Positions 18,893 through 63,910 of a DNA stretch of 64,000 bases are shown here, one piece after another. The notes beneath the pieces are model-generated. The model was not told the DNA's origin. It did no database searches and was given only the letters and a program-made list of their open reading frames with translations. Origin of the DNA: a virus; IMG/VR virus record IMGVR_UViG_3300005529_000001, positions 272,882 through 336,881 of that record; one strand, given 5' to 3'. The position numbers and the translations under genes are program-made. Position 1 is the first letter of the stretch. Each line of letters begins with the position of its first letter.

Positions 18893-18909
18893 GTATCAGG
18901 TCGCTCCGA

Positions 18910-19626: not shown

Positions 19627-19637
19627 TTGCCTAGCCC

Positions 19638-20126: not shown

Positions 20127-20178
20127 CCTACTCCCCCGACACGATCTTGAAACTTGAGCTTGCTACGTTGTGCTGTCT

Positions 20179-49637: not shown

Positions 49638-50449
49638 GCGTAGCTTTTTTGCTTGTCACCTGCTGTCTTGAGCAGTCTCGTGCCGATCTCCTCGACAGGG
49701 TGGTCGAGAACCTGTGCGAACAAGCGCCTGAACTGCGAGAGACGATGCTTGTTTTTGACAACGCATCGACTGTCCCTGGCGTCAGGACCTTGCTGACATC
49801 AAACTTCCGTCATGTCCGTCAAGCTGACAGGAACGTCGGCTACTGGTCTGCGGTCGACTGGTGGCTCACGGTGCTCGATTCGGCACCCAAGAAGCCCGAC
49901 TTCACGTACATCATTGAGAGCGACATGATCCACTACAACTTCAATAAGCTGTGGGAATGTGCCGTCTACCTCGAACGAAACCCAGATGTGGGTTCGTGCC
50001 GGCTGCACCAGTACTCAGTCGTAGACAGGCACCTCTACAACAAAGACAGACCCCTGCCTGACAGCAAGCGCAATCTGTGGCAATCGCATCAAAACAAAGT
50101 GACGGGCGAGCAAGTCATCTTTTCACAATCAGAGGGTGACATCTGGACATCAACGTTCTTGACACAGCTCCCGGCACTGAACCGTTTTGAGACGATGAAA
50201 GAAGTCTTCCAAACGCTCCGAAGCTCTCCGATGTTTTCTGAGCTCGATTTCCAGATGAATTACTGGAAACGTTACCATCGAACAGCTATCCTCGACGGCG
50301 GGATCTTTCACTGTGATCTGAACCCACATGATGCTGGGACGCTAACTGGTTCGTGGTCATCGCCTGAACAACTAAAGCAGATCGGGTACAAGACCACGAG
50401 GATCGCAACAATCACTCCGCAAGACCAGTACACCGTTTGCTCGCTGTGA
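49634..50449 (+). CDS. putative GT-A (GT2-like) glycosyltransferase
   Basis: MLVFDNAST and ESDM acidic motif. Confidence 0.4.
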   Translation: MSVAFLLVTCCLEQSRADLLDRVVENLCEQAPELRETMLVFDNASTVPGVRTLLTSNFRHVRQADRNVGYWSAVDWWLTVLDSAPKKPDFTYIIESDMIHYNFNKLWECAVYLERNPDVGSCRLHQYSVVDRHLYNKDRPLPDSKRNLWQSHQNKVTGEQVIFSQSEGDIWTSTFLTQLPALNRFETMKEVFQTLRSSPMFSELDFQMNYWKRYHRTAILDGGIFHCDLNPHDAGTLTGSWSSPEQLKQIGYKTTRIATITPQDQYTVCSL

Positions 50450-50462
50450 TACAGTTCACAGG

Positions 50463-51503
50463 ATGTCTGGGACCCTTATCTTTGGCGGCACTGGTTCGCT
50501 CGGTCGCAAGCTGATTGAACGTCTCCTTCCCAAGGGAGACGTTGCTGTCTACTCACGTGATGAAGCGAAACACTGGACTATTCGAAATGAACTTTCGGGG
50601 TTCATTGAGAAAAGCTTGCCCTGGAAGCTTCAGTTCTTTGTGGGTGACGTCAGGGACAAAACTCGAGTCGAAGACGTCATTCGTCAGTACAACCCTGATA
50701 CGATCATCATTGCTGCGGCGCTGAAACAAGTAGACACTTGTGAGCTCAGCCCCAACGAAAGCGTGTTGACAAACCTGATTGGGACTCAGAACGTCATCGA
50801 CGCAGTCAACAAGTCACGGTTCTCCCCTGGTGTCTCAGTCATGTTCGTCAGCACCGACAAAGCTTGCGCACCTGTCAACGTCTATGGAATGTGCAAAGCA
50901 ATCTCAGAACGCGTCGTGACAAGCCAGGCTCGTACGGGGCTATCAAACGTCAGGTACCTAGCGGTCCGTTATGGCAACGTTCTCGAGTCTAGAGGTAGCA
51001 TCATACCGTTGTTCAAACACCAGTGTGAGAAAGGCGAGTTCTTGACGGTCACCGATCCCGAGATGACGCGGTACGTGATGACGCTAGATGACAGCGTGGA
51101 TCTTATCCAAAAAGCAATAGAGTTTGGAATCTCAGGTGAGACGTGGATCCCGTGTCTTCCAGCAATGAAGATCGGTGACCTTGCTGACATTTTTTCTCAA
51201 CGATATAACAAACCCGTCAAGGTCATTGGTTTACGGCCGGGAGAGAAGAAACACGAAGACCTGGTCAACGAGTCGGAGTCAGTTAGGACGCGTAAAATCA
51301 ATCCACCCGTGGGATTTAACTACGTCATCGACCCCGCGTTTCGTTCCGGCAATGGTCAACGGTTCACTTACTCTAGCTCGGACCTGGTCATGAATCGTGA
51401 AGATCTAGAGGTGTACCTCAACAAGCTTGGCATCTTTGACAAGCCGTTAGACCAGTTCAAGGGCCTTGCCATCGAAGAGATCGTCACCAACCGAAAGGAA
51501 TGA
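50463..51503 (+). CDS. UDP-GlcNAc 4,6-dehydratase-like protein (PseB/FlaA1/PglF/CapD family)
   Basis: GGTGSLGRKL Rossmann motif, YSRDEAK, YxxxK region. Confidence 0.7.
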   Translation: MSGTLIFGGTGSLGRKLIERLLPKGDVAVYSRDEAKHWTIRNELSGFIEKSLPWKLQFFVGDVRDKTRVEDVIRQYNPDTIIIAAALKQVDTCELSPNESVLTNLIGTQNVIDAVNKSRFSPGVSVMFVSTDKACAPVNVYGMCKAISERVVTSQARTGLSNVRYLAVRYGNVLESRGSIIPLFKHQCEKGEFLTVTDPEMTRYVMTLDDSVDLIQKAIEFGISGETWIPCLPAMKIGDLADIFSQRYNKPVKVIGLRPGEKKHEDLVNESESVRTRKINPPVGFNYVIDPAFRSGNGQRFTYSSSDLVMNREDLEVYLNKLGIFDKPLDQFKGLAIEEIVTNRKE

Positions 51504-52650
51504 CATGAAGACGTACCCGCTGTTCAAAGTCCACGTTCCCAAAGAGGAAGCTTTGGCCCAGTTGGGTCAGGTCTTCGACTCGGGTTTCATCAACGAAGGT
51601 ACGCAGGTCACCGCCCTGACCAGCCAGCTGTCTGAGTACCTAGAAAGCAATCACCTCATCCTGGTGAACAGCTGCACTAGCGCCTTGTTCATGGCGCTAA
51701 AACTCGCTGGGGTCGGTCCTGGAGACGAGGTCATCAGCACGGCGATGACGTGTGTGGCAACCAACGCTGCCATCGCAATGACAGGCGCTAAGATTGTCTG
51801 GGCTGACGTAGATCCTGAGAGCGGGATGCTTGATCCTTACAGCATCATGGAGAAGATCACTCCTCACACCAAAGCAGTCATGGCGGTGGCTTGGGCGGGA
51901 ACCCCACCTCACATGTTCATGTTGAAAAACACGTGCAAGGCATTTCATGTCAAGCTGATCTTGGATGCTGCACACGCGTTCGGCGCCTATTACAAAAATG
52001 CTCCCGTTCACGAGTGGGCTGACTACACTTGTTACTCATTCCAGGCTATCAAACACTTCACTACGGGGGACGGCGGCGCTCTTATCTGTACCGACAAGGC
52101 TGATTACCAGCGATCTAAGTCGATGAAATGGTTCGGGCTTGACCGTGACAAAACCAAGGATGCTGCGGGCAACTGGAAAGGCCAGCAGTGGGACACCGAC
52201 ATCGAGGAGATCGGCTACAAGTTTAACATGAACAACGTTTGTGCAGCCATCGGTCTGTCGCAGATGAAGCACGTTGACATGATCGTGGACGGCCACGTCA
52301 GGAACGGGGGCCGATATGACATGCTGTTCCTCGACTACGAGCCCGTTAGGCCAATCACGCGGCCAGACGGTAGCATCTCGGCACACTGGGTCTACACCAT
52401 GAAGGTGAACCCCGACAAGTGCAAGCTGTCACGTGACGATCTGTTGAAAGCTCTCAACGCTGAGAAGATCATGGCGGGAGTGGTACACGTTCCGAACGAC
52501 GATTACACCTGCTTTCAGGACATCAAAGACCATAACCTGAAGGGTCTCAAGCAGTTTGCACCCCACCAGTTCTCATTACCGTGTGGGTGGTGGCTTGAAG
52601 AGGAAGACATCCGTCACATCGCCAAGCGTGTCAAGGAACTCACACAATGA
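51504..52650 (+). CDS. DegT/DnrJ/EryC1-family PLP-dependent sugar aminotransferase (PseC/PglE-like)
   Basis: SFQAIKHFTTGDGGALI with conserved Lys; start re-set to ATG 51504. Confidence 0.7.
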
Positions 52651-53171
52651 GAGTTGATGTCCCGGACCAATATTACTTGCGTCCCGTTGAAAACGATGAT
52701 CACCCATTTCTTGTTGACTTGCACAATGATGAGCTGGTCCTCAGGAACTTGACACATCCAGAAGCCATCACTATGGAACAACACATGAAGTGGTGGGAGA
52801 AAACCAAAGCCGATCGGAAACAGCTTAGGTTGATCTTTGTGACAGACGGTCACCGGACGGGTGTTGCCAAGTTCTATGATTATGATGCCATCAACCGGAC
52901 GATTGTCCTGGGAGGCGACATCCACAAAGCACACAGGGGTCATGGGCTCGCTAAGTACATGTGGACGTTGATGCTTGAACGTTGTTTCGAGAGCTTCCAC
53001 GTTCACCGCGTTGGCCTGACGACCGCCGAATACAACGTGATCGGTCAAAGCGTCTACAAAAACTTGGGCTTCATGGAAGAGGGCCGGATCAAAGAATCGT
53101 TGTACCGTGATGGAAAGTTCTATGATCAGATCTGCATGTACCTAACAGAACACGATTGGGCGCTTCAGTGA
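52647..53171 (+). CDS. GNAT-family N-acetyltransferase (PseH-like candidate)
   Basis: GNAT motif A RGHGLAKYMW; follows dehydratase + aminotransferase. Confidence 0.6.
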   Translation: MRVDVPDQYYLRPVENDDHPFLVDLHNDELVLRNLTHPEAITMEQHMKWWEKTKADRKQLRLIFVTDGHRTGVAKFYDYDAINRTIVLGGDIHKAHRGHGLAKYMWTLMLERCFESFHVHRVGLTTAEYNVIGQSVYKNLGFMEEGRIKESLYRDGKFYDQICMYLTEHDWALQ

Positions 53172-53902
53172 ACGAACTGCCTCGTATCTTTGTGGGTACC
53201 ATGTACACCCAAGAGGGTGAGTTTGAGGGCTGTCTCAAACAGATCCGTGCGCAACAGGACGTCGTTGTTGCGCATGTCATCATTGCTAACATGCGTGAGA
53301 AAGAGGCACACAACGCTCTGTGGCACGCCTGGCGTCACCAGGGCTCAAGCCACGATCTCTTTGTTAAGGTCGATGCTGACACCATCCTAGCTTCACCACA
53401 CACGCTAAGGCTGATCTGGGAACAGTTCAATAACAACCCACGAGTCACGGGTCTCCAGGCACCGTTACATGATTACATGACTGATGGCCTGATCAACGGG
53501 CTCAATGCATTCTCAACCAAGGTCGTCTTCAATGATACCCAAGACGAACTGTACTGCGACAGGCAAGTGGACACGAACCATGATGTCGTCCTACGAGAGA
53601 AAGACCTACCATCAACGTTGATCCCGGCAGGTTTTCACTGTTGGAACTCGACTGACTCACAAGCTTTTCATTATGGCCTCCATCGGATGTTGAAGGGGCA
53701 ACGAACAACCATCGACAAAGTCAGAATGGCTTGGAACCGTGACCATGACAGACCAAGAGCTTGGGCTCTGATCGGCGCAAAGATGGCGGACCAGTTTACC
53801 ATCAATCGTCAGTTCAACTACAACGATCCGACGTTCAAAACAGCATTCGCTGAGGCAAATACACGTTATGATGAGCTCACCCAGAATCTTGCAGTTGGTT
53901 GA
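53156..53902 (+). CDS. hypothetical protein, possible GT-A-like glycosyltransferase
   Basis: VKVDADT acidic motif. Confidence 0.3.
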   Translation: MGASVNELPRIFVGTMYTQEGEFEGCLKQIRAQQDVVVAHVIIANMREKEAHNALWHAWRHQGSSHDLFVKVDADTILASPHTLRLIWEQFNNNPRVTGLQAPLHDYMTDGLINGLNAFSTKVVFNDTQDELYCDRQVDTNHDVVLREKDLPSTLIPAGFHCWNSTDSQAFHYGLHRMLKGQRTTIDKVRMAWNRDHDRPRAWALIGAKMADQFTINRQFNYNDPTFKTAFAEANTRYDELTQNLAVG

Positions 53903-54809
53903 CACCCTCGAGTACGCCAAGACCAACTGCTTCCAACACCAGTTGCTAAAGAGCCTACGAGGCATTGCACAAACAGAAACGTGTGCCTTGCCAGCGCTGG
54001 AACGTGCCCTGGACATGGATGACCGTCCTGTCATCGTTTGCCTGAAACAACGAACCCTGGCACAAAATCTGGACGTGCTCAAAGATCATTTAGGAGACAC
54101 GCCCATTGTCATATACGATCAGGACCCGTGGCAAGCCTACATGGATGATCCTGGTTATGTTGGCAAGGGAGTCTATGAACGCGCTGTCGAGCAACTAAAT
54201 GTCAAAGCGATCTGCGTTACCACCCAATGGTGGGCTGATTTCTTAGCGCACCGCGGTTTACCTGGCATTTTCGTCAACATGTGGATGTTACCCGAGTATT
54301 GCACCGAAACGCCAACATACGAAGACAGATCAATATCTGTAGGTTTCGTCGGCAGCCTGCATCCGCACCGTCAAAAGCTGTTTGACCAGCTCGAAGACAT
54401 GGGCATCATCGTCAACGTCCAAGGGGGAGGTCTGTCTTACCAGAGCTATTTGAACGAGCTATCAAAGATCCGTGTCTTCATCCATAGCGAAGATTGCCCA
54501 ATCATGTGTGAAAAGCAAGAACTCAACCTGAAAGACGCCCTGTGGATCAAAGACATTGAAGCCGCGGCTCGGGGTTGTTTCACCATTCGTAATGCGGGCG
54601 CGGGTTTCTTATCGTATTATGATGGGTGTTTGACGTCGTTTCTCTACGAAAACGTCGAAGACATCCCAAACATCCTGAGTGACATCCAGAAAATGGATCC
54701 CACGTCAAGGCAGTTGCTAATCAACAGCGCCGTCAGGTACATCCGTGAGTCAAACAAGTGGGAAGAAACGGCACGCACGTTGGTTACTTTGGCAACAGAG
54801 GGAACATGA
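53868..54809 (+). CDS. hypothetical GT-B-fold-like protein
   Basis: 313 aa; size/position compatible with PseG-type UDP-sugar hydrolase. Confidence 0.3.
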   Translation: MMSSPRILQLVDTLEYAKTNCFQHQLLKSLRGIAQTETCALPALERALDMDDRPVIVCLKQRTLAQNLDVLKDHLGDTPIVIYDQDPWQAYMDDPGYVGKGVYERAVEQLNVKAICVTTQWWADFLAHRGLPGIFVNMWMLPEYCTETPTYEDRSISVGFVGSLHPHRQKLFDQLEDMGIIVNVQGGGLSYQSYLNELSKIRVFIHSEDCPIMCEKQELNLKDALWIKDIEAAARGCFTIRNAGAGFLSYYDGCLTSFLYENVEDIPNILSDIQKMDPTSRQLLINSAVRYIRESNKWEETARTLVTLATEGT

Positions 54810-56083
54810 AAATAGGGTTCATGGGTCTGGGCAAGCTCGGGTTACCCGTTGCCCTGGCGGTGGAAGCCGCGGGCCACGAGGTGATGGGTTATGATCCTGG
54901 CGCTCAAGTTGTTGACATCATATCGACAAAGAAGCTACCGTATGTCGAAGAGAACGCCCAACCGTTGCTCGACAACACCAAGCTCCGGCTAGTAGGTCCC
55001 GGTGACCTGGTCGAACAGTGCGACTTGATCTTCGTAGCTGTCCAGACGCCCCACCACCCACGTTATGAGGGAGTCAGTCGCCTTCCGACCAAGCGAGTCG
55101 ATTTTGATTACACCTGGCTAAAGCAGTCGATCACCCAGCTCGCTGATGCTGCGGCCCAGAAAGCGAAGACGACCCGTGTTGTTGTCATCTCAACGGTGCT
55201 TCCCGGGACGATCGAACGTGAGATCTTCCCAATCATGCATGCGTACGGAAACTTCATCAAGCTGTGTTACAACCCGTTTTTCATCGCGATGGGAACCACG
55301 ATCCGTGACTTCACCAACCCAGAATTTGTTCTCTTTGGGGTAGACGATCACGAAACAGCAACCCTTGCTGAAACGTTTTACAAGACCATCCACGCTCGTC
55401 CCTTCTACAAGACGGGAATCAAGGAAGCTGAGCTGATCAAGGTTGCTTACAACACATTCATCAGCACAAAGATCGGGTTTGTCAACACGTTGATGGAGAT
55501 CTGTCACAAGACGGGTGTCAATGTCGATGCGGTCACAGACGGCTTGAAGCTAGCTAACGAACGTCTGATCAGCACCCGCTACATGACGGCTGGCATGGGC
55601 GATGGTGGCGGGTGTCACCCTCGCGATAACATCGCGTTGTCTTGGCTCGCTCGTAAGCTTGAATTGGGCTTTGATTTCTTTGAAGCGATCATGCTTTCCA
55701 GAGAACGACAGACGGATTGGTTTGCTGATGTGCTTGAAGAGCAGATCGAACAATGCCGGAAGATGGGCTGGAACCCGCCCGTTGTCATCCTCGGTCTATC
55801 TTTCAAACCGGAGACAAACCTGGTCACGGGCAGCCCGGCAATCTTGCTTGCAAACGTCATAGCGGAGCGTGGCATCACTCCCATGTTCTATGATCCCATT
55901 GTCAACCCCAATGACCGGACCCGGACGCTTCCCCCACCACCTGCTCTGTTTTTTGTGGGTACCAAGCACGCTGAGTTTGCAAACATAAAGTTTAGCGTAG
56001 GATCGATCGTTATCGACCCACACCGGTACATCCCCGATCAGCAAGGCGTCACTGTCATCAGGTTGGGTGATGGGACCAAGTGA
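54806..56083 (+). CDS. UDP-sugar 6-dehydrogenase family protein
   Basis: KIGFMGLGKLGLPVA NAD-binding motif; catalytic Cys GGGCHPRDN. Confidence 0.7.
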   Translation: MKIGFMGLGKLGLPVALAVEAAGHEVMGYDPGAQVVDIISTKKLPYVEENAQPLLDNTKLRLVGPGDLVEQCDLIFVAVQTPHHPRYEGVSRLPTKRVDFDYTWLKQSITQLADAAAQKAKTTRVVVISTVLPGTIEREIFPIMHAYGNFIKLCYNPFFIAMGTTIRDFTNPEFVLFGVDDHETATLAETFYKTIHARPFYKTGIKEAELIKVAYNTFISTKIGFVNTLMEICHKTGVNVDAVTDGLKLANERLISTRYMTAGMGDGGGCHPRDNIALSWLARKLELGFDFFEAIMLSRERQTDWFADVLEEQIEQCRKMGWNPPVVILGLSFKPETNLVTGSPAILLANVIAERGITPMFYDPIVNPNDRTRTLPPPPALFFVGTKHAEFANIKFSVGSIVIDPHRYIPDQQGVTVIRLGDGTK

Positions 56084-56774
56084 GTTTTTGGTCTCAGTCC
56101 TTGTCCCAACTCGAAACAGGGTCAAGTTGTTAGAGAAATCGTTGCGTTCGTTAAAAGACAACGCTCGGCTTGATTTCAAGCAGAAAATTGAGATCATCAT
56201 AAAGCTCGATGAAGATGATGTAGCGACCCAAAACTGGGTGATACAAAACAACGCCGAGCTGTGGACAACGCTGTTACCTGGGCCGCGCGGGCGCGGTTAC
56301 GCTGACCTCCACGTCTACTACAATGACATGTGTCGTTTGGCTCGGGGCGAGTTCTTGTTCCTCTGGAACGATGATGCTGAGATGTTGACGCCGGGCTGGG
56401 ACCTGGAGATCAACCGACAACTTGATGGCAAGCCGTGTTACTTGCAATCTGAAGTCAGCGACATTCGTGGACGTGACGCTTTCTTGTTTCCTATCGTTCA
56501 CAGGTCATGGTACGACAGCTGCGGTCACTTCTCGATGTCACCGCACAATGACACGTACGTGTTTAACGCATTCATCAAGTACCCGCAGCTGTTCCGTAAA
56601 ACGGCGATCGTGGTGCGACACGCCGCGTTACAAAATTTGCATGACATCACCAGCTTAGAAGCACGAGGGTGGTGGCCGACAACCAAGAGAGGTTGGGGCA
56701 GCCCGGAAGTCCAGGACTCGCTAGCGTCTGACATCAAACGCTTGGGAGAGCTGGTGAAACAGTATAAGCTGTAA
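56067..56774 (+). CDS. GT2-family glycosyltransferase
   Basis: VLVPTRNR and NDDAEM (DxD). Confidence 0.6.
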   Translation: MMGPSEFLVSVLVPTRNRVKLLEKSLRSLKDNARLDFKQKIEIIIKLDEDDVATQNWVIQNNAELWTTLLPGPRGRGYADLHVYYNDMCRLARGEFLFLWNDDAEMLTPGWDLEINRQLDGKPCYLQSEVSDIRGRDAFLFPIVHRSWYDSCGHFSMSPHNDTYVFNAFIKYPQLFRKTAIVVRHAALQNLHDITSLEARGWWPTTKRGWGSPEVQDSLASDIKRLGELVKQYKL

Positions 56775-56790
56775 AGATTACATTCTACGC

Positions 56791-57771
56791 ATGAAGAGCA
56801 TCGCCGTCGTGGGCCAGGGTTTCGTTGGTGGATCGCTAACGACAGTTTTTGCAGAGCGTGGCTTTGACGTGTATGCTTATGACAAAGCGGGCAAGATCGC
56901 TACGGGTGCTAAGGTTCCTCGCTTCCATGGCCACGGAACTGGGCCTGATGGAATCGAAGCTACATCTGTCAAGGGCTTGGTCTTTGCGATGGATGAATTG
57001 GGTAAGGCTTTCAGCAACGTCTACTTCGTGTGCTTGCCGACCCCCATGTTCGAGGACGGCGAGGCTGACCTGTCGATCGTTGAGGGCGTCCTCGCTGAGC
57101 TCGCCGAAGCGCACAAGGTCCTGGAGCGTTGGGGGATCGCGGTCGTCAAATCGACGGTCCCGCCGGGCTCAGTCGAGCGATGGAACAAGGCTTTCAACTC
57201 ACAGGGTCTCTACATCGTCTTCAATCCAGAATTCCTGACAGAGGCCAACGCCCTGGACGACATGCGCAACCAGGATCGGATCATCCTGGGCGGGCCCCGC
57301 CCCTACATCAACATTGTCAAGCTGCTGTTTCAGACGGCGTTCAAGGGCGTCCCCGTCATCAAGACCTCATCGACGACGGCGGAGATGGTGAAGTACACCA
57401 TCAACTGCTTCCTGGCGACCAAGGTCGCCTTCGCCAACGAGATCGCGCAGATCACTGAAGCGCTGGACGCTGACGGTCTTAACGTCGACTATGACAAAGT
57501 GGTTGAGTACGCCAAGCTCGACAAGAGGTTGGGCAACAGCCATTGGGCAGTACCAGGGCCCGTGCCCACGCACGATGGGCGATACGTGCGCGGTTTCGGA
57601 GGGCACTGTTTCCCCAAAGACTTGAATGCGCTTGTTTTCGTTGCGAAACAACTCGGGGTTGACCCGAAAGTCCTCACCAGTGTCTGGGCCAAGAACCTTG
57701 AGGTCCGCGGGCCCGAAGACCGCGACTGGGAACACATGCAAGGCCGAGCTGTCAGCAAGAAAAAGAAGTGA
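56791..57771 (+). CDS. UDP-glucose/GDP-mannose dehydrogenase family protein (second copy, shorter)
   Basis: VVGQGFVGG and catalytic Cys GGHCFPKD. Confidence 0.65.
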   Translation: MKSIAVVGQGFVGGSLTTVFAERGFDVYAYDKAGKIATGAKVPRFHGHGTGPDGIEATSVKGLVFAMDELGKAFSNVYFVCLPTPMFEDGEADLSIVEGVLAELAEAHKVLERWGIAVVKSTVPPGSVERWNKAFNSQGLYIVFNPEFLTEANALDDMRNQDRIILGGPRPYINIVKLLFQTAFKGVPVIKTSSTTAEMVKYTINCFLATKVAFANEIAQITEALDADGLNVDYDKVVEYAKLDKRLGNSHWAVPGPVPTHDGRYVRGFGGHCFPKDLNALVFVAKQLGVDPKVLTSVWAKNLEVRGPEDRDWEHMQGRAVSKKKK

Positions 57772-57877: not shown

Positions 57878-58885
57878 ATGAGCGAGTTTGGAATTGTCAT
57901 CATGCGGGCACAGCCCTTTCACAATGCGCACCTGGAATTGGTGCGTTTTGCGCTTAAGGAAGCGCAAAAAGTAGTCATCATCCTGGGAAGTGCCAACGCG
58001 CCCCGGGACACAATGAACCCCTTCACCGCCGACCAACGGCGTGACATGGTCAGGAGTTGCCTGACTGCCGACGAGCTCTCTCGTGTCGAGATCATCTCCG
58101 CGAAAGACTACCTCTCAAACAACATGTGGATCGCAGCGGTCCAAAACTCGGTCGATGCTGTCACGGGCGGGTCCAGTGATATCAAGCTGATCGGTCACAA
58201 GAAAGACGCCTCAAGCTTCTACTTGAAGCTGTTTCCACAGTGGAGCTTCCATGAGACGGGAGCTTTCTCTGAGCTCAATGCGACGAGCGTCAGGGAGAAC
58301 CTGTTCCGACAGGATAAGATCACCATCAAGACGCAGGTGCCGAAGCCGGTCTACGACTACCTGTGCTCTTGGATGGAGAGCGCTGAGTACAAGCGCCTCC
58401 ATGGTGAGTACAAGAACGTACAAGAAGAACATGCCGCTTGGGAGGAGAGCCCTTACGTCCCCACCTTCGTGACGACAGACGCCATCGTCATCTGCAGCGG
58501 TCACATCCTCATCGGCCGCCGGGGTGGAGCTTACGGCAAGGACCTGCTGGCTTGGCCAGGTGGGTACCTAGAGCAAGACAAGTCAATCCTGGACTCTTGC
58601 ATCCGTGAGCTCCGGGAGGAGACGAAGCTCAAGGTCTCGACCGAAGACCTGAAGAAGGCGGTCATCGATAAGGACGTTTTCGATGACCCCCGGCGCGACC
58701 AACGCGGGCGTGTCATCACCCATGCCTTCTGTTTCAAGCTGCCCGATGGGCGGCTACCTGAGGTCCAGGGTGCGGACGACATGGCCAAGGCATGGTGGAT
58801 GACCATCAACGAGTTCTACACCCGAGAGCTCGAGTTCTTCGCAGACCATTTCAAGATGGGCTGCCGTTTCATCAATCGATTTTAA
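57878..58885 (+). CDS. nadM: bifunctional NMN adenylyltransferase / Nudix hydrolase (NadM-Nudix)
   Basis: H-x-G-H type PFHNAHL; Nudix box PGGYLEQDKSILDSCIRELREETKL. Confidence 0.85.
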   Translation: MSEFGIVIMRAQPFHNAHLELVRFALKEAQKVVIILGSANAPRDTMNPFTADQRRDMVRSCLTADELSRVEIISAKDYLSNNMWIAAVQNSVDAVTGGSSDIKLIGHKKDASSFYLKLFPQWSFHETGAFSELNATSVRENLFRQDKITIKTQVPKPVYDYLCSWMESAEYKRLHGEYKNVQEEHAAWEESPYVPTFVTTDAIVICSGHILIGRRGGAYGKDLLAWPGGYLEQDKSILDSCIRELREETKLKVSTEDLKKAVIDKDVFDDPRRDQRGRVITHAFCFKLPDGRLPEVQGADDMAKAWWMTINEFYTRELEFFADHFKMGCRFINRF

Positions 58886-58941
58886 AAAGTTCCGCCCGAT
58901 CGAGCCAGAGAGGCCCGCGAGGCGCATCACGGAGAGTGAAT

Positions 58942-60393
58942 ATGAGAACCACATACATCAGGACGTACCTTAGAAAACCCGACCTCGAGCTCAGCGCGAT
59001 CGAGGACACTGACTCGTATAAATTCAGCCACTTCCCCATGTACCCGGGCATGTCGTACATGGAGAGTTATCTCGAGGCTCGGGGCGGCGAGTTCGACACC
59101 TGTACCCTGTTTGGGTTGCAGTACGTCATCCACAAGTACATCGCCAAGCGTGTGACAGCAGCTGATGTCGAACGTGCTGAAGCCTTCGCCCTGGCACACG
59201 GTGAGCCGTTCAACCGCAAAGGTTGGATGCACATCGTCACGAAGTACCACGGTTACCTTCCCATCACCATCCGCGCCATCCCAGAGGGCATGGTGGTGCC
59301 CGTCAAGAACGCCGTGATGATTGTCAGGAGCCCGGTCGATCCCGAGTGTGCCTGGATCACTAACTGGTTGGAGACGTTGCTGTCCAGGGTCTGGTACCCG
59401 TCGACGGTCGCCATCGCGAGTCGCGAGATCAAGAAGGTCTGGAAGCATTACCTCGACCTGACCAGCGACACCCCCGAGGAGATCAGCTTTAAACACCATG
59501 ACTTCGGTTCGCGTGGCGTCACCAGCCAGGAGCAGGCGATGCTCGGCGGCGCGGCCCACCTGCTTAACTTCCTCGGTAGCGATACCATCGCGGGCATCCG
59601 CATGGCGAATCACTATTACGACGAAGCCATGGCGGGTTTCAGCATCCCAGCCACCGAGCACTCGACGATCACCATCTTCGGTCGTGACCACGAACGTGAT
59701 GCCCTCAAGCTCTGGATCCAGAAGATGCTGGTCGAGCGTCAGGTCCCCGAAGGGCTGCCCAAGCTCGCTGCTTGCGTTGGCGACTCTTACGACATTTACC
59801 GTTTCACGGAGATGGTTTGCGAACCCGAGATCTACGCCATGATTAAGGGTTCGGGCGGCACCCTGGTCGAGCGCCCCGATTCGGGCGACCCGATCGAGGT
59901 GCTTCTCAGGATCCTCGGCATCATGGAGGATCGCCTCCCAAAGGGTGAGATCACTGTCAACTCTAAGGGTTTCAAGGTGTTGCCTGCGTGCCTCCGTCTC
60001 ATCTGGGGCGATGGCATCAACCGTCGCAGCATGAAGACGATCCTGAAGGCAATCACAGACGCAGGATGGAGCGCCTCAAACCTGGCTTTCGGTTCGGGCG
60101 GTGGCCTGCTGATGGATTTCAACCGCGACACCCAGAAATGGGCGTTCAAGCTGTGCTACGCCATCGTGGACGGCACACCGCGCAAGGTGTCGAAGGACCC
60201 GATCACCGACCCGGGCAAGCGCTCGAAAGAGGGTCACCTCGATTTGATCGTCACCCCAAATGGCGTCGAAACGGTCACTATTCCAGACAATGTTGCAGCT
60301 CATCACAACAGCGTCATGGTGACCTACTACGATGGTGGTGACATCACATTCCACACCGACATGACCGCCTGCCGGACAAGGATGGCGATCTGA
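58942..60393 (+). CDS. nadV: nicotinamide phosphoribosyltransferase (NadV/NAMPT)
   Basis: NAMPT-like regions GSDTIAG, HSTITIFG, GSGGGLLMD; ATG 58942 with GGAGAG RBS. Confidence 0.8.
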   Translation: MRTTYIRTYLRKPDLELSAIEDTDSYKFSHFPMYPGMSYMESYLEARGGEFDTCTLFGLQYVIHKYIAKRVTAADVERAEAFALAHGEPFNRKGWMHIVTKYHGYLPITIRAIPEGMVVPVKNAVMIVRSPVDPECAWITNWLETLLSRVWYPSTVAIASREIKKVWKHYLDLTSDTPEEISFKHHDFGSRGVTSQEQAMLGGAAHLLNFLGSDTIAGIRMANHYYDEAMAGFSIPATEHSTITIFGRDHERDALKLWIQKMLVERQVPEGLPKLAACVGDSYDIYRFTEMVCEPEIYAMIKGSGGTLVERPDSGDPIEVLLRILGIMEDRLPKGEITVNSKGFKVLPACLRLIWGDGINRRSMKTILKAITDAGWSASNLAFGSGGGLLMDFNRDTQKWAFKLCYAIVDGTPRKVSKDPITDPGKRSKEGHLDLIVTPNGVETVTIPDNVAAHHNSVMVTYYDGGDITFHTDMTACRTRMAI

Positions 60394-60412: not shown

Positions 60413-60847
60413 ATGGATTACACCGCAAGCAAGATCGCCGATCACCTGTTCCAAGGCGGACGACCACCCCCGGGTGACGGCCTGAAAAACGCCGGGGTAG
60501 ACGTCCTAGTCCTCTGTGCCAGAGAGTGGCAAGAGAGCGCGCTCTACCCCGGACTCATCGTCATCAAAGCTCCTGGTGATGATGATCGACGTGAACATCG
60601 GTTAATGCAGTCCATCGACAAGTGGAAGCTCGCCGCAGAACTCTCAGCCGAACATGTCATGGCAGGTCGCAACGTCTTGATCACTTGCATGCAGGGACTC
60701 AATCGTTCAGGACTAGTCATGGCTATGACGTTACGGATTCTGACGGGATGGTCGGGAAAGAAGATCGTCGAGCACATCCAGAATCACCGCGAGCATGCCT
60801 TGTTCAACGATACGTTCGTTCGTTACATTGAGACCAACTACCCATGA
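60413..60847 (+). CDS. dual-specificity/tyrosine protein phosphatase
   Basis: CX5R catalytic loop CMQGLNRSG. Confidence 0.7.
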   Translation: MDYTASKIADHLFQGGRPPPGDGLKNAGVDVLVLCAREWQESALYPGLIVIKAPGDDDRREHRLMQSIDKWKLAAELSAEHVMAGRNVLITCMQGLNRSGLVMAMTLRILTGWSGKKIVEHIQNHREHALFNDTFVRYIETNYP

Positions 60848-61350
60848 TCAACTACCTTGTCGGAGACGCAACTGATCCACGGGTTACGGGCAACAAGATC
60901 ATCGCTCATGTCTGCAATGACATTGGTGGCTGGGGCAGAGGGTTCGTCTTGTCGGTGTCCAAGAAGTGGTCCGAGCCCGAAGCGGTTTACCGTCAAGGGA
61001 AAGACCTGACCTTGGGATCTGTCATGTTTGTCCCGGTATCCCACACCGATACAACCATCCAGGAGACGATCTACGTCGCAAACATGATTGGCCAGCGCGG
61101 TGTCATTGCAGCCGAAGACGGCACCCCACCCATCCGTTACGAAGCCATCGAAACGTGCTTGGGACGCGTCAGAGCGTTTGCGTTGCAGCTCGGTGGAGCA
61201 AGCGTCCACATGCCCCGGATCGGTTGCGGCCTGGCAGGAGGTAAATGGAGCAAGATGGAACCCATCATCGAGCGAGCGCTTGATGGCATCGACACATACG
61301 TGTATGATTTTGACACGAAAGACTCCCGGACTGTTTCCTGGAACAAGTGA
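60844..61350 (+). CDS. macro domain protein (ADP-ribose binding / mono-ADP-ribosylhydrolase-like)
   Basis: IIAHVCNDIGGWGRGFV and VHMPRIGCGLAGG. Confidence 0.75.
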   Translation: MINYLVGDATDPRVTGNKIIAHVCNDIGGWGRGFVLSVSKKWSEPEAVYRQGKDLTLGSVMFVPVSHTDTTIQETIYVANMIGQRGVIAAEDGTPPIRYEAIETCLGRVRAFALQLGGASVHMPRIGCGLAGGKWSKMEPIIERALDGIDTYVYDFDTKDSRTVSWNK

Positions 61351-61503: not shown

Positions 61504-61986
61504 ATGTCATATCACATCGGCCTGCGGGTGCTGCGGGCAAAAATCAGGGGCTTTCAGGCCGCTGGTAGCACCATCGCGTCACGCATCTCGAAGTCCGAGA
61601 AGGACCGCAAGAACCGTCTCTGGAACGAGAAGCGGCTCCTCGGCGTTCACTGTCGTGCTCACCTGGTTGCATATGGGCTGCTCCGTGGGGTACCGTATGA
61701 CCAGATCGAGAAATGCGCACCAAACAACAAGCTAAACCCACAGCTCGTCCTCGACATCATGCTGGCTCACAACGGCTGGGACGCAAAACGAGGGTACGTC
61801 AAGTACGACCTAGCGGTGGTCGAAAAGCTGCTGGCTCCTGCTTCAAACGAGACTGGGAGCGTGCAGGAAAGCCCAACGGTTGTTGCTGCCCCAGCTGCCT
61901 CGCCGAACTCGGGCGTAGTCCACGTGGTCAAGAGCTTGCTAGGCTTGTCCGCGAGGTCTCAAACCGCCCCAAGAAGCGCCCAGTGA
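61504..61986 (+). CDS. hypothetical protein
   Basis: 160 aa. Confidence 0.35.
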   Translation: MSYHIGLRVLRAKIRGFQAAGSTIASRISKSEKDRKNRLWNEKRLLGVHCRAHLVAYGLLRGVPYDQIEKCAPNNKLNPQLVLDIMLAHNGWDAKRGYVKYDLAVVEKLLAPASNETGSVQESPTVVAAPAASPNSGVVHVVKSLLGLSARSQTAPRSAQ

Positions 61987-61994
61987 GACAGGCC

Positions 61995-62351
61995 ATGGCC
62001 ACCATCAAAGAGGGTGACAAGCTTTACGTGGTGACCCGGAGAGACATCTCTCCAGGCTATCAGGGCGTCCAATCACAACATGCAGCCATCCAGTTTGCGT
62101 TTGACCATCCCGAACGTGGGACGGAGTGGTTCAAGAACTCGAACTACTTGGCATGGCTGTCGGTCGAGAATGAGGTTGAGCTGATGAAGCTCATCACTGA
62201 TGCTGCGGACGTCGGGCTCAAATGGTCAGCGTTCAGGGAGCCCGACGTGGGTGGCCAGATCACTGCGATCGCGCTCGAGCCCCACCCACGGACTGCCGCG
62301 CTGTGCAAAGCATTGCCGCTTGCGCTTAGAGAACTGGAACAGGTGAAGTGA
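61995..62351 (+). CDS. peptidyl-tRNA hydrolase, PTH2 family
   Basis: KLYVVTRRDISPGYQGVQSQHAAIQFA parallels PTH2 [25 protein letters not shown]. Confidence 0.6.
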   Translation: MATIKEGDKLYVVTRRDISPGYQGVQSQHAAIQFAFDHPERGTEWFKNSNYLAWLSVENEVELMKLITDAADVGLKWSAFREPDVGGQITAIALEPHPRTAALCKALPLALRELEQVK

Positions 62352-62352: not shown

Positions 62353-62712
62353 ATGGACCAAGCACTTAATACCATCGTCTATGACGATTTCGCCAGAGTT
62401 GACATGCGTGCGGGCCTCATCACAGCCGCAGAGGCTTTGCCAAAGTCAGAGTTGCTGAAGCTCCAGGTTGACTTCGGTGAGCTAGGAACTCGGCAGGTCC
62501 TTGCTCGTCTCGGCAAGAGCTACGAGCCAGCAACTCTTGTCAACCTCACCGCAGCGTTCGTCGTCAACTTGCCCCCACGTACCATGAAGGATCTTGAGAG
62601 TAACGGCATGATCCTTGCGGCAGAAGTCAAGGATTCTGATGTTCCTGCTCCACACCGCGTTGCCGTGGTGTTGCTCCCCGGGACAGTCCGACCAGGAACG
62701 AGGTTGGGATGA
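62353..62712 (+). CDS. tRNA-binding domain protein (Trbp111/CsaA/MetRS C-terminal 'Myf' domain)
   Basis: VDMRAGLITAAE...LKLQVDFGELGTRQVLARLGKSY...NLPPRTMKDLESNGMILAAE. Confidence 0.75.
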   Translation: MDQALNTIVYDDFARVDMRAGLITAAEALPKSELLKLQVDFGELGTRQVLARLGKSYEPATLVNLTAAFVVNLPPRTMKDLESNGMILAAEVKDSDVPAPHRVAVVLLPGTVRPGTRLG

Positions 62713-63335
62713 CAGAGAACCGCGCGACGTTCTTCGCTAGGTTGGAACCTGTGTTGGCTCCGAGCGACCTGCTCGATGTCCAACTCGCTTACACCCTGGC
62801 GAAATTCGGCCATCGGGCTCAGGCTCGCAAGGAGCTGGGGCCTGCAGGCAAAGCAGTGCGTTATTTCGAGCACTGCCGTCGTGTCGCGCTCATCCTCATT
62901 GATGAGGTCAAGATCGTCGAACCTGGGCTTGTCATCACCGCCCTTCTACATGATTGTCCGGAAGACACTAAGGATGTCAATCCCGCCATCATTGAGCACT
63001 GCTTTGGGCACAAGGTCGTCACCAGTGTCAAGGTCCTGAGCAAGACGCCCAAGGAAGGCTACAACGAGCGATTTTGGGCTTGTTCGCTTTGGCAGCCCTA
63101 CATCATCAAGGGATGTGATAGGCTTGACAACCTGAGGTCACTGTACTGCTGCCCGGATGACTTCCGAGCCAAACAGGTGGCTGAGACACGGGAGAAGTAC
63201 TTCCCGCTGTTCGACCGGATGATGCACCTGGTCCCCATCAAACACCGCGAACGAGCGGCATGGCTTCGCGACGCGGTGCGTCGCGAGACCGAACGCCAAG
63301 CAACGTTACTGGAGGCGTCACATGAAGAAGTCTGA
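62709..63335 (+). CDS. HD-domain small alarmone hydrolase (SpoT/Mesh1-like (p)ppGpp hydrolase)
   Basis: HCRRVALIL...LLHDCPEDT and CDRLDNLRS (cf. ADRLHNMRT). Confidence 0.7.
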   Translation: MTENRATFFARLEPVLAPSDLLDVQLAYTLAKFGHRAQARKELGPAGKAVRYFEHCRRVALILIDEVKIVEPGLVITALLHDCPEDTKDVNPAIIEHCFGHKVVTSVKVLSKTPKEGYNERFWACSLWQPYIIKGCDRLDNLRSLYCCPDDFRAKQVAETREKYFPLFDRMMHLVPIKHRERAAWLRDAVRRETERQATLLEASHEEV

Positions 63336-63750
63336 GCTGGAACACTTCATCACCCTGACCCTGGGTGACTGGTCACATGACGGTCACAGCCAGACTGACG
63401 TCATCACCGTCAGGTGTAACGTCGACAAGAAGGACCTCGAGAAAGCATATAAAAAGGGCACCAAGAAATTAGGTTTCGATCTCACCGAAGATGTCTGCGC
63501 CGACTACGAAGACATGTCGGCATCAGCCGACGTCATCGAAAAGCTCAAAACTGCTGGTATCAAGCCCGAAGATTTCATCGAGAACGAAGATGAAGATGAC
63601 GAGGGATGGTCATTCGCCTACAATGTCGAAGCCTTCGCCAGTCTCTGGCTGCGTATCGCTCAGTTGGGCGATCCCGATCTCAAGTACGAGCTCGTCGAAA
63701 CCAACCCGAACAATATTAACATCGGAGGTTACGGCCTATTTGGATCTTGA
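63322..63750 (+). CDS. hypothetical acidic protein
   Basis: 142 aa. Confidence 0.35.
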   Translation: MKKSELEHFITLTLGDWSHDGHSQTDVITVRCNVDKKDLEKAYKKGTKKLGFDLTEDVCADYEDMSASADVIEKLKTAGIKPEDFIENEDEDDEGWSFAYNVEAFASLWLRIAQLGDPDLKYELVETNPNNINIGGYGLFGS

Positions 63751-63757: not shown

Positions 63758-63830
63758 GGGTCCGTAGCTCAATGGCAGAGCAGCTCGATTTCAACCGAGT
63801 GTGTTGCGGGTTCAAGTCCCGTCGGGCCCC
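63758..63830 (+). tRNA. tRNA-like gene, 73 nt, 8-nt anticodon loop AUUUCAAC; anticodon ambiguous (UUC/Glu or UCA register)
   Basis: Acceptor GGGUCCG/CGGGCCC, D-arm GCUC-AAUGGCA-GAGC, T-arm GCGGG-UUCAAGU-CCCGU; only good anticodon stem GCUCG/CGAGU forces 8-nt loop. Confidence 0.6.
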
Positions 63831-63836
63831 CAAAAA

Positions 63837-63910
63837 GCTCCCGTAGCTCAGAGGCAGAGCAGCCGGATTTCAACCCGATGCGGTCGTGGGTTCGATCCCC
63901 ACCAGGAGCG
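63837..63910 (+). tRNA. tRNA-like gene, 74 nt, same AUUUCAAC anticodon-loop, weaker stems
   Basis: D-arm GCUC-AGAGGCA-GAGC, T-arm GUGGG-UUCGAUC-CCCAC, acceptor with one C-A mismatch; anticodon stem imperfect. Confidence 0.45.

What the first reader, a model, noticed from the sequence alone, without database searches (positions are those of the whole stretch)
62709..63335. Phage-encoded Mesh1/SpoT-like small alarmone hydrolase
The HD motifs (H..H, HD, ED, DRLDN) match the (p)ppGpp hydrolase fold with no synthetase domain. A phage SAH would blunt the stringent response or degrade (p)ppApp-type toxic alarmones during infection. Its placement within the tRNA/PTH2/NAD island suggests coordinated takeover of host stress signalling.
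Basis: partly seen in the sequence, partly recalled or inferred. Interest (0 to 1): 0.55.

Follow-up and report, generated by a model that had tools for sequence, protein, structure and literature searches.

The report
Huge-phage small alarmone hydrolase gene
A 369 kb phage carries an intact, hydrolase-only relative of the bacterial SpoT/Mesh1 enzymes that most likely removes 3'-pyrophosphates from alarmone nucleotides and/or modified tRNA ends to defeat host growth-arrest defences; this kind of phage gene is already known, so the finding is sound but fairly ordinary.

Summary
ORF 62709-63335 (+, 208 aa) is a standalone RelA/SpoT-homologue hydrolase domain, i.e. a small alarmone hydrolase (SAH). 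Evidence: Pfam HD_4 above its gathering score; family profile vs PDB gives Mesh1 1.2e-15 and Rel 1.1e-13; an AlphaFold model (pLDDT 92) matches only Rel, SpoT, Mesh1 and SAH structures. H55, H81-D82, E85-D86, K134, D137 and N141 are invariant in 197/197 homologues. dN/dS is about 0.1. There is no synthetase domain and no adjacent toxSAS.

The window is part of a 369.5 kb phage contig. The gene sits in a tightly packed same-strand block: NMNAT-Nudix, NAMPT (NARP2-like), DSP phosphatase, macro, orf160, PTH2-like, tRNA-binding OB protein (4-nt overlap with the SAH start), SAH, unknown, two tRNAs. The block is syntenic in 12 other distinct contigs, and four more related contigs keep it but lack the SAH, so the SAH is a variable accessory cassette.

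Phage SAHs are already known. PVP-SE1 and SSU5 enzymes neutralise all tested toxSAS toxins, PaSpo removes tRNA 3'-pyrophosphate, and jumbo-phage "HD-alarmone PDease" genes are catalogued. Verdict: new, sequence-divergent member of a known kind. The substrate ((p)ppGpp/(p)ppApp, tRNA-3'PP or NADPH) is unresolved.

Side observation: the adjacent tRNAs have conserved 8-nt UCA-type anticodon loops, although 80% of the window's genes end in TGA.

The parts
62709..63335 (+). Small alarmone hydrolase (standalone RSH hydrolase domain, 208 aa). Motifs: H35/R36/Q38/R40/K41, H55, H81-D82, E85-D86, K134, D137-R-L-D140-N141.
   Evidence: ORF; Pfam HD_4; PDB sequence and profile matches to Mesh1, Rel and SpoT; AF2 model pLDDT 92.1 matching only RSH hydrolase folds; residue invariance in 197 sequences; dN/dS about 0.1.
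62353..62712 (+). tRNA-binding OB-fold protein (MetRS C-terminal / CsaA / Trbp111-like, 119 aa). Its TGA stop overlaps the SAH ATG (ATGA).
   Evidence: Pfam tRNA_bind E=1.1e-15; NCBIfam metG_C_term 2e-21 and tRNA-binding protein models; overlap seen in the sequence. Present in 10 of 12 distinct SAH-bearing syntenic contigs, on either side of the SAH.
61995..62351 (+). PTH2-like (archaeo-eukaryotic-type peptidyl-tRNA hydrolase-like) protein.
   Evidence: Pfam PTH2 E=9.4e-6, 26.3 bits against a gathering score of 23; phrog_1866 1.3e-17. Within 2.5 kb of the SAH in at least 9 of 40 SAH clusters.
61504..61986 (+). Conserved unknown protein (orf160). It travels with PTH2 in every syntenic contig, with or without the SAH.
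   Evidence: No Pfam, NCBIfam or PHROG hit; synteny.
60844..61350 (+). Macro-domain-like protein (168 aa); its start overlaps the DSP stop by 4 nt.
   Evidence: Weak Pfam Macro hit (E=0.0081, below gathering); NCBIfam DarG macro region 2.9e-7; phrog_335 1.3e-27.
60413..60847 (+). Dual-specificity-phosphatase-like protein.
   Evidence: Pfam DSPc E=9.2e-6, below gathering; phrog_10650. DSPc also lies directly upstream of the SAH in the unrelated locus L032.
58942..60393 (+). Nicotinamide phosphoribosyltransferase (NAMPT).
   Evidence: Pfam NAPRTase 8e-40 and NAMPT_N 4.6e-22; gene call on the source contig.
57878..58885 (+). NMNAT (CTP_transf_like) + Nudix protein. Together with NAMPT it forms an NARP2-like NAD+ reconstitution pair.
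   Evidence: Precomputed Pfam on the source contig; coordinates mapped; NARP2 definition from bioRxiv 10.1101/2024.02.11.579819.
63322..63750 (+). Unknown 142-aa protein; its start overlaps the SAH 3' end by 14 nt.
   Evidence: phrog_20092 1.1e-21, function unknown; no Pfam hit. Found in only a few relatives.
63758..63830 (+). tRNA with an 8-nt anticodon loop AUUUCAAC (UCA-type / 'UUCA').
   Evidence: ARAGORN; Rfam tRNA 52.2 bits; arm parsing; alignment and covariation.
63837..63910 (+). Second tRNA with the same 8-nt anticodon loop AUUUCAAC.
   Evidence: ARAGORN; Rfam tRNA 46.9 bits.

Best explanation
The gene encodes a catalytically competent, Mn2+-dependent RSH-family 3'-pyrophosphohydrolase (an 'orphan' small alarmone hydrolase) of a 369.5 kb phage. 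It is probably co-transcribed and translationally coupled with its neighbours in a block of accessory genes. During infection it most likely strips the 3'-pyrophosphate that RelA/SpoT-type synthetases install, on (p)ppGpp and (p)ppApp and very possibly on the A76 3'-OH of tRNA. That would cancel alarmone- or toxSAS/CapRel-type growth arrest and abortive infection and keep translation running. Shown here: gene, fold, intact active site, purifying selection, phage origin, conserved operon context. Inferred from characterised homologues: the chemistry and the counter-defence role. Not resolved: which substrate matters in vivo.
For: Family and fold: Pfam HD_4; PDB phmmer and profile hits only to Mesh1, Rel, SpoT and SAHs; AF2 pLDDT 92.1, pTM 0.89; Foldseek top 49 PDB hits are all RSH hydrolase-type HD proteins, including PaSAH with TM 0.80. 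Active site: H55, H81, D82, E85, D86, K134, D137 and N141 invariant in 197/197 homologues down to about 29% identity; H35, R36, Q38 and R40 invariant in at least 97%. Selection: dN/dS 0.09-0.12. Phage: TerL, SbcC-like, PhoH, helicase; 369,506-bp contig; relatives on viral contigs up to 480 kb. Operon: gaps of -14 to +19 nt around the gene, ATGA overlap with the tRNA_bind gene, no + strand terminator-like site downstream of the NAMPT start. Counter-defence neighbourhood: NARP2-like NAMPT+NMNAT, macro, PTH2. Variable presence inside a conserved island, which is typical of accessory or counter-defence genes. Precedent: phage SAHs of PVP-SE1 and SSU5 neutralise all five toxSAS classes (PMC7229694); MESH1 and ATfaRel restore aminoacylation of FaRel2-pyrophosphorylated tRNA; PaSpo removes the FaRel2 tRNA mark (PMC11245113).
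Against: No biochemical or infection data exist for this family. It is at most 33% identical to any SAH-like sequence in deposited phage genomes apart from one unannotated 485 kb phage, so substrate range cannot be transferred safely. The host is unknown, so it is not known whether the host carries toxSAS/CapRel or (p)ppApp toxins. The gene is absent from four otherwise syntenic relatives, so it is not essential. More distant family members sit among bacterial housekeeping genes in MAGs, so the family is not inherently a counter-defence factor.
Confidence: 0.6

Rival explanations
1. Pure stringent-response blunting. The enzyme's selected function is simply to hydrolyse host (p)ppGpp, so that rRNA/tRNA transcription, translation and nucleotide synthesis stay high during the long infection cycle of a huge phage. 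There would be no link to immune systems or to tRNA.
For: All RSH hydrolase motifs are intact. The best sequence matches are (p)ppGpp hydrolases (Mesh1, Rel). The jumbo-phage 'HD-alarmone PDease' has been read this way (PMC7824862).
Against: The gene is a presence/absence-variable cassette among close relatives and sits among counter-defence-type genes (NARP2-like, macro), not among core replication or transcription genes. The phage SAHs that were tested act on toxSAS products, including tRNA. Nothing here excludes this rival; it overlaps with the best explanation.
Confidence: 0.2
2. Dedicated tRNA 3'-end repair enzyme. The SAH works with the translationally coupled tRNA-binding OB-fold protein, and in the same module as the PTH2-like hydrolase, to remove 3'-pyrophosphate from tRNA CCA ends. 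That would protect host and phage tRNAs from CapRel/FaRel2/PhRel-type toxins.
For: ATGA overlap with a tRNA_bind gene. tRNA_bind is found in 10/12 SAH-bearing versus 1/4 SAH-lacking syntenic contigs. PTH2-like lies within 2.5 kb in at least 9 of 40 SAH clusters and unusual tRNAs within 600 bp in 7. In a different phage lineage the SAH neighbours a monomeric PheRS-like synthetase (11 genes), Thg1 (4), class II aaRS (3), RNA ligase (2) and Tpt1 (1). In L076 it neighbours tRNA-synt_1b and PTH2. SAHs are proven to depyrophosphorylate tRNA.
Against: The associations are not phylogenetically independent and the tRNA_bind co-occurrence is not significant (one-sided Fisher about 0.06, my calculation). 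orf160-PTH2-tRNA persists without the SAH, so the tRNA module does not need it. No SAH-tRNA_bind fusion was found among the longer homologues. In the PheRS lineage the coupled downstream gene is an HslV-like peptidase and the next is LigA, neither tRNA-related. Huge phages cluster translation genes anyway.
Confidence: 0.15
3. NADP(H) 2'-phosphatase feeding the NAD pool. Like MESH1 and XccSAH, the enzyme converts NADP(H) to NAD(H), complementing the adjacent NAMPT + NMNAT-Nudix (NARP2-like) genes against NAD+-depleting defences.
For: The SAH stays within 5 kb of NMNAT-Nudix and NAMPT across the clade. In L076 a CTP_transf_like gene overlaps its 3' end. NAD-dependent LigA lies nearby in 16 loci of another lineage. 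Mesh1 and a bacterial SAH do hydrolyse NADPH (PMC9765508).
Against: NADPH activity of the bacterial SAH is about 1000-fold less efficient than its alarmone hydrolysis. The NAD genes are separated from the SAH by five other genes here. The apparent 'NMNAT' neighbour in L054 is only a Nudix protein. The Mesh1 nicotinamide-riboside motif could not be tested because the residues are not given in the accessible text.
Confidence: 0.07
4. Not an alarmone-type enzyme at all: a generic HD phosphohydrolase (e.g. a nucleotidase) or an inactive pseudo-enzyme.
For: The Pfam generic HD model also matches weakly (E=0.0026, below gathering). PHROG annotation is only 'metal-dependent phosphohydrolase'.
Against: RSH-specific motifs beyond HD (R-x-Q-x-RK, ED, K..D-x-x-x-N) are all present and invariant. 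All top sequence and structure matches are RSH hydrolases, with no dNTPases, HD-GYP or 5'-nucleotidases above them. Strong purifying selection.
Confidence: 0.03

Closest known systems
Phage-encoded standalone SAHs: Salmonella phage SSU5 PaSpo and PVP-SE1 SAH (PbcSpo subfamily) (Jimmy et al. 2020, PMC7229694)
   Same: Hydrolase-only RSH protein of about 200 aa, encoded by a phage with no adjacent toxSAS. Same predicted chemistry. The expected role is neutralising toxSAS products, both alarmone and tRNA-3'PP.
   Different: No detectable BLAST-level similarity: neither phage appears even at E<=10 in tblastn. This family is essentially confined to huge-phage metagenomic contigs and some uncultivated bacteria. 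It has a 4-residue longer beta-hairpin loop after the RK motif and a long extra C-terminal helix at residues 177-206. It sits next to tRNA_bind, PTH2 and odd tRNAs. It is untested experimentally.
Metazoan Mesh1 / human MESH1 (HDDC3) and bacterial Mesh1-L SAHs (XccSAH, PaSAH)
   Same: Best sequence match (Drosophila Mesh1 3nqw, profile E=1.2e-15). Same fold (PaSAH 6yvc TM 0.80, MESH1 TM 0.69). Same metal and catalytic residues.
   Different: Only about 24-27% identity in the Foldseek alignments. About 30 residues longer. Viral rather than cellular. Whether it shares their NADPH phosphatase activity is unknown.
Hydrolase (HD) domain of long RSH enzymes Rel/SpoT (T. thermophilus Rel 6s2t, B. subtilis Rel 6yxa, RelSeq 1vj7)
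   Same: Aligns from residue 9 to residue 171, covering the whole HD domain including the N-terminal helix and the helices after the D-x-x-x-N motif. Foldseek E about 1e-7.
   Different: No synthetase, TGS or ACT domains. No ribosome-sensing apparatus. Standalone.
'HD-alarmone PDease' of group 2/3 jumbo phages (Iyer et al. 2021, PMC7824862)
   Same: Same category: a jumbo/huge-phage HD-superfamily alarmone hydrolase read as a counter-measure to alarmone-based immunity. The same paper also notes PTH2 in jumbo phages.
   Different: Membership in the same sequence family was not tested, because the example accession BBI90576.1 could not be retrieved with these tools. BFVD jumbo-phage hits are at most 24% identical.

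Membership tests
RSH superfamily hydrolase domain (Pfam HD_4, PF13328) | Significant match to the family profile above the curated threshold | tested here: met
   HD_4 E=7.7e-8, 32.6 bits against a gathering score of 27.2. NCBIfam spoT_relA N-terminal 148 positions, E=5.5e-11. Family profile vs PDB: Mesh1 1.2e-15, Rel 1.1e-13.
RSH superfamily hydrolase domain (Pfam HD_4, PF13328) | All-helical HD fold superimposable on Rel/SpoT/Mesh1 hydrolase domains | tested here: met
   AF2 model pLDDT 92.1. Foldseek vs PDB: 41 hits at E<=1e-3, all Rel, SpoT, Mesh1, SAH or Aph1. TM (target-normalised) up to 0.80 for PaSAH.
RSH superfamily hydrolase domain (Pfam HD_4, PF13328) | Metal-binding H...HD...D tetrad (hMESH1 H35, H61, D62, D122; numbering from my own knowledge) | tested here: met
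   H55, H81, D82 and D137 align with the corresponding Mesh1 and Rel residues and are invariant in 197/197 homologues. Metal occupancy itself is not testable here.
RSH superfamily hydrolase domain (Pfam HD_4, PF13328) | Catalytic ED dyad, N-terminal R-x-Q-x-RK motif and D-x-x-x-N motif (HD1-HD5 motifs) | tested here: met
   E85-D86 and N141 invariant 197/197. R40 194/197, Q38 195/197, H35 195/197, K134 197/197.
Small alarmone hydrolase (SAH: single-domain, hydrolase-only RSH) | No synthetase (RelA_SpoT/SYNTH), TGS or ACT domain in the protein | tested here: met
   208 aa. Only HD_4/HD domains detected. Homologues are almost all 200-220 aa. Longer ones carry only unrelated short extensions.
Small alarmone hydrolase (SAH: single-domain, hydrolase-only RSH) | Mn2+-dependent hydrolysis of the 3'-pyrophosphate of (p)ppGpp and/or (p)ppApp | not testable with these tools
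   Needs an enzyme assay. Inferred only from conserved residues.
Specific SAH subfamily of Jimmy et al. 2020 (PaSpo, PbcSpo, Mesh1, Mesh1-L, ...; 11 subfamilies) | Match to that subfamily's HMM or placement in its clade | not tested
   The subfamily HMMs and trees are not available in these tools. Indirectly, there is no tblastn similarity to PVP-SE1 or SSU5 at E<=10, and Mesh1 is the best PDB hit. It may be an unnamed subfamily.
Type IV antitoxin SAH of a toxSAS toxin-antitoxin operon (e.g. ATfaRel) | Adjacent toxSAS (RelA_SpoT synthetase) gene in a conserved two- or three-gene operon | tested here: not met
   No RelA_SpoT synthetase domain among the genes within +/-10 kb in the source contig or within +/-7 kb in L076-L078. 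It does not appear in the listed neighbour families of 220 flanking genes, though only the top 25 families per scan are shown. It is therefore an orphan SAH.
Anti-defence protein (counter-toxSAS / counter-alarmone immunity) | Restores phage plating or cell growth in the presence of a toxSAS/CapRel-type system | not testable with these tools
   Needs toxicity-neutralisation and infection assays. Supported only by analogy and by accessory-gene behaviour.

The most novel reading that the evidence does not exclude
This huge-phage SAH family is specialised for tRNA rather than for free alarmones. Together with the translationally coupled tRNA-binding OB-fold protein, the PTH2-like hydrolase and the neighbouring non-canonical (8-nt-loop, UCA/CUA-type) tRNAs, it would form a phage 'tRNA 3'-end maintenance' module. 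That module would erase CCA-end modifications (3'-pyrophosphate, blocked aminoacyl groups) installed by host abortive-infection toxins.
Probability: 0.15. Interest if true: 0.6.

Novelty: new member of a known kind. Interest (0 to 1): 0.3.

Why it matters
If active as predicted, the gene adds a large, sequence-divergent family to the known phage small alarmone hydrolases. More than 1000 clusters were found, mostly on huge-phage contigs. That would suggest RSH-based immunity (toxSAS/CapRel, (p)ppApp toxins) or stringent-response arrest exerts pressure on huge phages in environmental communities. Its position gives a concrete candidate for asking whether phage SAHs are tuned to tRNA or to nucleotides: it is coupled to a tRNA-binding protein and lies next to PTH2, NARP2-like genes and unusual tRNAs. 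Conceptually it does not change the picture, because phage SAHs, their anti-toxSAS activity and their presence in jumbo phages are already published.

Tried and rejected
1. Nucleotide search of the 6 kb region against 50,697 deposited phages gave no match. The protein-level search gave only one unannotated 485 kb phage.
2. Looked for SAH-tRNA_bind fusion proteins among the longer homologues (P0060, P0114, P0048, P0070). Their extensions are unrelated Cys-rich or short N/C-terminal tails.
3. First read the 26 GTDB hits as all mis-binned phage. Rejected after Pfam showed housekeeping neighbours (H+-PPase, MraW, TsaD, GAPDH, DnaJ) for several of them, so distant family members also occur in uncultivated bacteria.
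4. Tried to obtain organism names for NCBI-derived homologues; none are recorded.
5. Tried to test the Mesh1 nicotinamide-riboside motif to weigh the NADPH rival. The residues are not given in the accessible text.
6. My local 'NMNAT' profile suggested NMNAT directly adjacent to the SAH in L054 and L059. PHROG shows the L054 neighbour is only a Nudix protein, and the L059 neighbour has no PHROG match, so that support for the NAD rival was downgraded.
7. Single-sequence reciprocal scans with PTH2 and tRNA_bind reached only close relatives. A profile-based reciprocal scan was not run.
8. The gene coupled to the SAH in the PheRS/LigA lineage turned out to be an HslV-like peptidase, which is uninformative for substrate.
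9. The promoter/terminator scan gave only weak consensus matches and no clear operon boundaries.
10. A literature search for 8-nt-loop suppressor tRNAs in phages found no precedent.
Full report
OBSERVATION. The window contains an ORF at exactly the reported coordinates: ATG 62709 to TGA 63335, + strand, 208 aa. It matches Pfam HD_4 (PF13328), the RelA/SpoT-type hydrolase domain, at E=7.7e-8 and 32.6 bits, above the 27.2-bit gathering score. No other domain is detected. NCBIfam's spoT_relA model matches only over its first 148 of 687 positions, i.e. the hydrolase domain alone. Against PDB sequences the best hit is Drosophila Mesh1 (3nqw, E=2.6e-8), followed by the hydrolase domains of Rel and SpoT enzymes, human MESH1 and bacterial SAHs. 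With a 20-sequence family profile these improve to 1.2e-15 (Mesh1) and 1.1e-13 (T. thermophilus Rel).

FOLD, CONSERVATION, SELECTION. An AlphaFold2 model built from the family alignment is confident (mean pLDDT 92.1, pTM 0.89). Foldseek against the PDB returns 41 hits at E<=1e-3, and all of them are RSH hydrolases (Rel, SpoT, Mesh1, P. aeruginosa SAH, RelH, Aph1). The target-normalised TM-score reaches 0.80 for PaSAH. In an alignment of 197 family members reaching down to about 29% identity, H55, H81, D82, E85, D86, K134, D137 and N141 are invariant (197/197). H35, R36, Q38 and R40 are at least 97% conserved. dN/dS against the three closest loci is 0.09-0.12, with synonymous sites near saturation. 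The gene is therefore real, coding, under purifying selection, and has a complete RSH hydrolase active site. Compared with Mesh1 it has a loop about 4 residues longer after the RK motif (a modelled beta-hairpin with lower confidence) and an extra long C-terminal helix at residues 177-206.

WHAT CARRIES IT. The window encodes a large terminase, an SbcC-like nuclease, PhoH and a helicase, together with a sugar-biosynthesis and glycosyltransferase cluster. An exact-sequence look-up places the gene on a 369,506-bp metagenomic contig. Homologues number more than 1000 clusters, nearly all 200-220 aa and standalone, on contigs up to 620 kb. Forty-eight loci were recovered from IMG/VR, many on 150-480 kb contigs. 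Among 50,697 deposited phages, only one unannotated 485 kb 'uncultured phage' carries a close relative (48.5% identity). The next hits are at most 33% identical, and the experimentally tested PVP-SE1 and SSU5 phages do not appear even at E<=10. A scan of GTDB representative genomes found 26 hits, all in MAGs. Some are on 350-650 kb contigs that look like huge phages. Others have clearly cellular neighbours (H+-PPase, MraW, TsaD, GAPDH, DnaJ), so distant members of the family also exist in uncultivated bacteria.

CONTEXT. All of the following genes are on the + strand:
- NMNAT(CTP_transf_like)-Nudix, 57878-58885
- NAMPT, 58942-60393
- DSP-like phosphatase, 60413-60847
- macro-like protein, 60844-61350
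- conserved unknown orf160, 61504-61986
- PTH2-like, 61995-62351
- tRNA_bind OB-fold protein, 62353-62712
- SAH, 62709-63335
- unknown 142-aa protein, 63322-63750
- two tRNAs, 63758-63830 and 63837-63910

Spacing is tight. The tRNA_bind stop overlaps the SAH start (ATGA), the SAH 3' end overlaps the next gene by 14 nt, and there is no + strand terminator-like site downstream of the NAMPT start. NAMPT plus NMNAT is the composition of the phage NAD+ reconstitution pathway NARP2, which counters NAD+-depleting defences (bioRxiv 10.1101/2024.02.11.579819). The block is syntenic in the closer relatives: 12 other distinct contigs (L001-L007, L009-L011, L013 and L077) share it at 61-83% SAH identity.

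I clustered the SAHs of 77 loci at 70% identity, which gave 40 clusters. A PTH2-like gene lies within 2.5 kb in at least 9 clusters, and an unusual tRNA lies within 600 bp in 7. In a separate, large lineage the arrangement is PheRS-like synthetase, small variable gene, SAH, HslV-like peptidase, NAD-dependent DNA ligase. Other neighbours there include Thg1, class II aaRS, RNA ligase, Tpt1 and DSPc. A reciprocal scan starting from PTH2 found four further syntenic contigs (L087, L089, L090, L091). They retain macro-orf160-PTH2-(tRNA_bind)-tRNA but have no SAH and no SAH remnant. The SAH is therefore a presence/absence-variable cassette inside a conserved accessory island. The PTH2-tRNA core does not depend on it.

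MECHANISM. Established knowledge of the family: RSH hydrolase domains use a Mn2+ ion held by H...HD...D, together with the ED dyad, to remove the 3'-pyrophosphate from (p)ppGpp. SAHs additionally hydrolyse (p)ppApp, some hydrolyse NADPH (PMC9765508), and MESH1, ATfaRel and the phage enzyme PaSpo remove the 3'-pyrophosphate that toxSAS toxins place on tRNA CCA ends. Phage SAHs from PVP-SE1 and SSU5 neutralise all five toxSAS classes (PMC7229694). No toxSAS gene lies nearby, so this is an orphan SAH and not an antitoxin of a local TA pair.

My best-supported explanation (confidence about 0.6) is a broad 3'-pyrophosphohydrolase used by the phage to cancel alarmone- or toxSAS-type growth arrest. 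What is shown here is the gene, the fold, the active site, the selection and the context. The chemistry and the role are inferred.

There are three substrate-level rivals:
- (p)ppGpp only, i.e. stringent-response blunting (about 0.2).
- Dedicated tRNA-3'PP repair together with the coupled tRNA-binding protein (about 0.15). The tRNA-rich neighbourhoods and tRNA_bind co-occurrence support this (10/12 SAH-bearing versus 1/4 SAH-lacking contigs; one-sided Fisher about 0.06, not phylogenetically independent). Non-independence, the SAH-less islands and the non-tRNA neighbours weaken it.
- NADP(H) phosphatase complementing NARP2 (about 0.07).

A generic or inactive HD protein is very unlikely (about 0.03).

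COMPARISON AND NOVELTY. It works like, and by every testable criterion is, an SAH (see the membership table). It could not be assigned to one of the 11 named SAH subfamilies because their models are not available here. By sequence it is far from PaSpo and PbcSpo phage enzymes and closest to Mesh1 and Rel hydrolase domains. Phage SAHs as counter-measures were proposed and tested in 2020. An 'HD-alarmone PDease' and PTH2 in jumbo phages were catalogued in 2021 (PMC7824862). A phage SAH is again annotated in a 2025 Pakpunavirus paper. BFVD holds at least 16 viral proteins with this fold. The finding is therefore a new, divergent member of a known kind, with modest interest (0.3). The most novel reading that remains open is a tRNA 3'-end maintenance module (probability about 0.15).

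SIDE OBSERVATION. The tRNAs next to the SAH are unusual. Both window tRNAs have the 8-nt anticodon loop AUUUCAAC. Twenty-one related tRNAs from the syntenic contigs all have N-Y-U-U-C-A-A-N loops whose stems pair only in the 8-nt register. The family folds as a cloverleaf with compensatory changes in 18 of 19 pairs. tRNAs in the same position downstream of the SAH or PTH2 in other contigs carry CUA instead, and in L005 one shares the type-B acceptor stem. That argues for stop-codon-reading tRNAs rather than tRNA-Glu. Yet 52 of 65 genes in the window end in TGA, so an efficient UGA suppressor would be costly. This remains unexplained.

Noticed in passing
window 63758-63830 and 63837-63910 (+); relatives L001-L013, L087, L090, L091: Two tRNAs directly after the SAH operon share an 8-nt anticodon loop AUUUCAAC (U-UCA-A core, or a 4-base 'UUCA' anticodon). 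Twenty-one related tRNAs in syntenic contigs all have N-Y-U-U-C-A-A-N 8-nt loops. The family shows a cloverleaf with compensatory changes in 18/19 pairs. tRNAs in the same position in L005, L089, L035 and L037 carry CUA (amber-type) anticodons instead. No literature precedent was found.
   Followed up: partly
whole window (65 ORFs): TGA is the stop codon of 52 of 65 genes (TAG 8, TAA 5), with no enrichment of A after TGA. This is hard to reconcile with two UCA-type suppressor-like tRNAs encoded by the same phage. They may be weak or conditional suppressors, quadruplet decoders, decoys or non-decoding RNAs.
   Followed up: partly
window 57878-60393 (+): NMNAT(CTP_transf_like)-Nudix plus NAMPT form an NARP2-like NAD+ reconstitution pair, a known anti-defence pathway. 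They are conserved upstream of the SAH block in relatives.
   Followed up: partly
window 61504-62351 (+); L087, L089, L090, L091: A conserved unknown gene (orf160, no hit in any library) is always paired with the PTH2-like gene. This pair plus the odd tRNA(s) persists even in contigs that lack the SAH. In L087 and L089 the tRNA starts 8-15 nt after the PTH2 stop.
   Followed up: partly
window 60413-61350 (+): A dual-specificity-phosphatase-like gene and a macro-domain-like gene (DarG-macro-like, phrog_335) overlap by 4 nt between the NAD genes and the PTH2 block. DSPc is also directly upstream of the SAH in the unrelated locus L032.
   Followed up: no
loci L016-L028, L036, L049 (e.g. L018:4386-5531): In a different huge-phage lineage the SAH lies next to a monomeric, mitochondrial-type PheRS-like protein (tRNA-synt_2d + FDX-ACB, about 355-390 aa), an HslV-like peptidase and an NAD-dependent DNA ligase.
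   Followed up: partly
window 45057-57771 (+): The phage carries a sugar-modification cluster: PseB-like Polysacc_synt_2 dehydratase, DegT/PseC-like aminotransferase, two UDP-glucose/GDP-mannose dehydrogenase-family genes and several GT4 glycosyltransferases. More glycosyltransferases lie beyond the window end.
   Followed up: no
window 13914-28795 (-): Four very large ORFs (952, 658, 1388 and 826 aa) have no PHROG match at E<=1e-5. They may be structural or other huge-phage-specific proteins.
   Followed up: no
window 63799-63863 (+): A weak Rfam YrlA (Y RNA-like) match (30.8 bits against a gathering score of 69) spans the junction of the two tRNAs. It is most likely a by-product of the tandem tRNA-like structure.
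   Followed up: no
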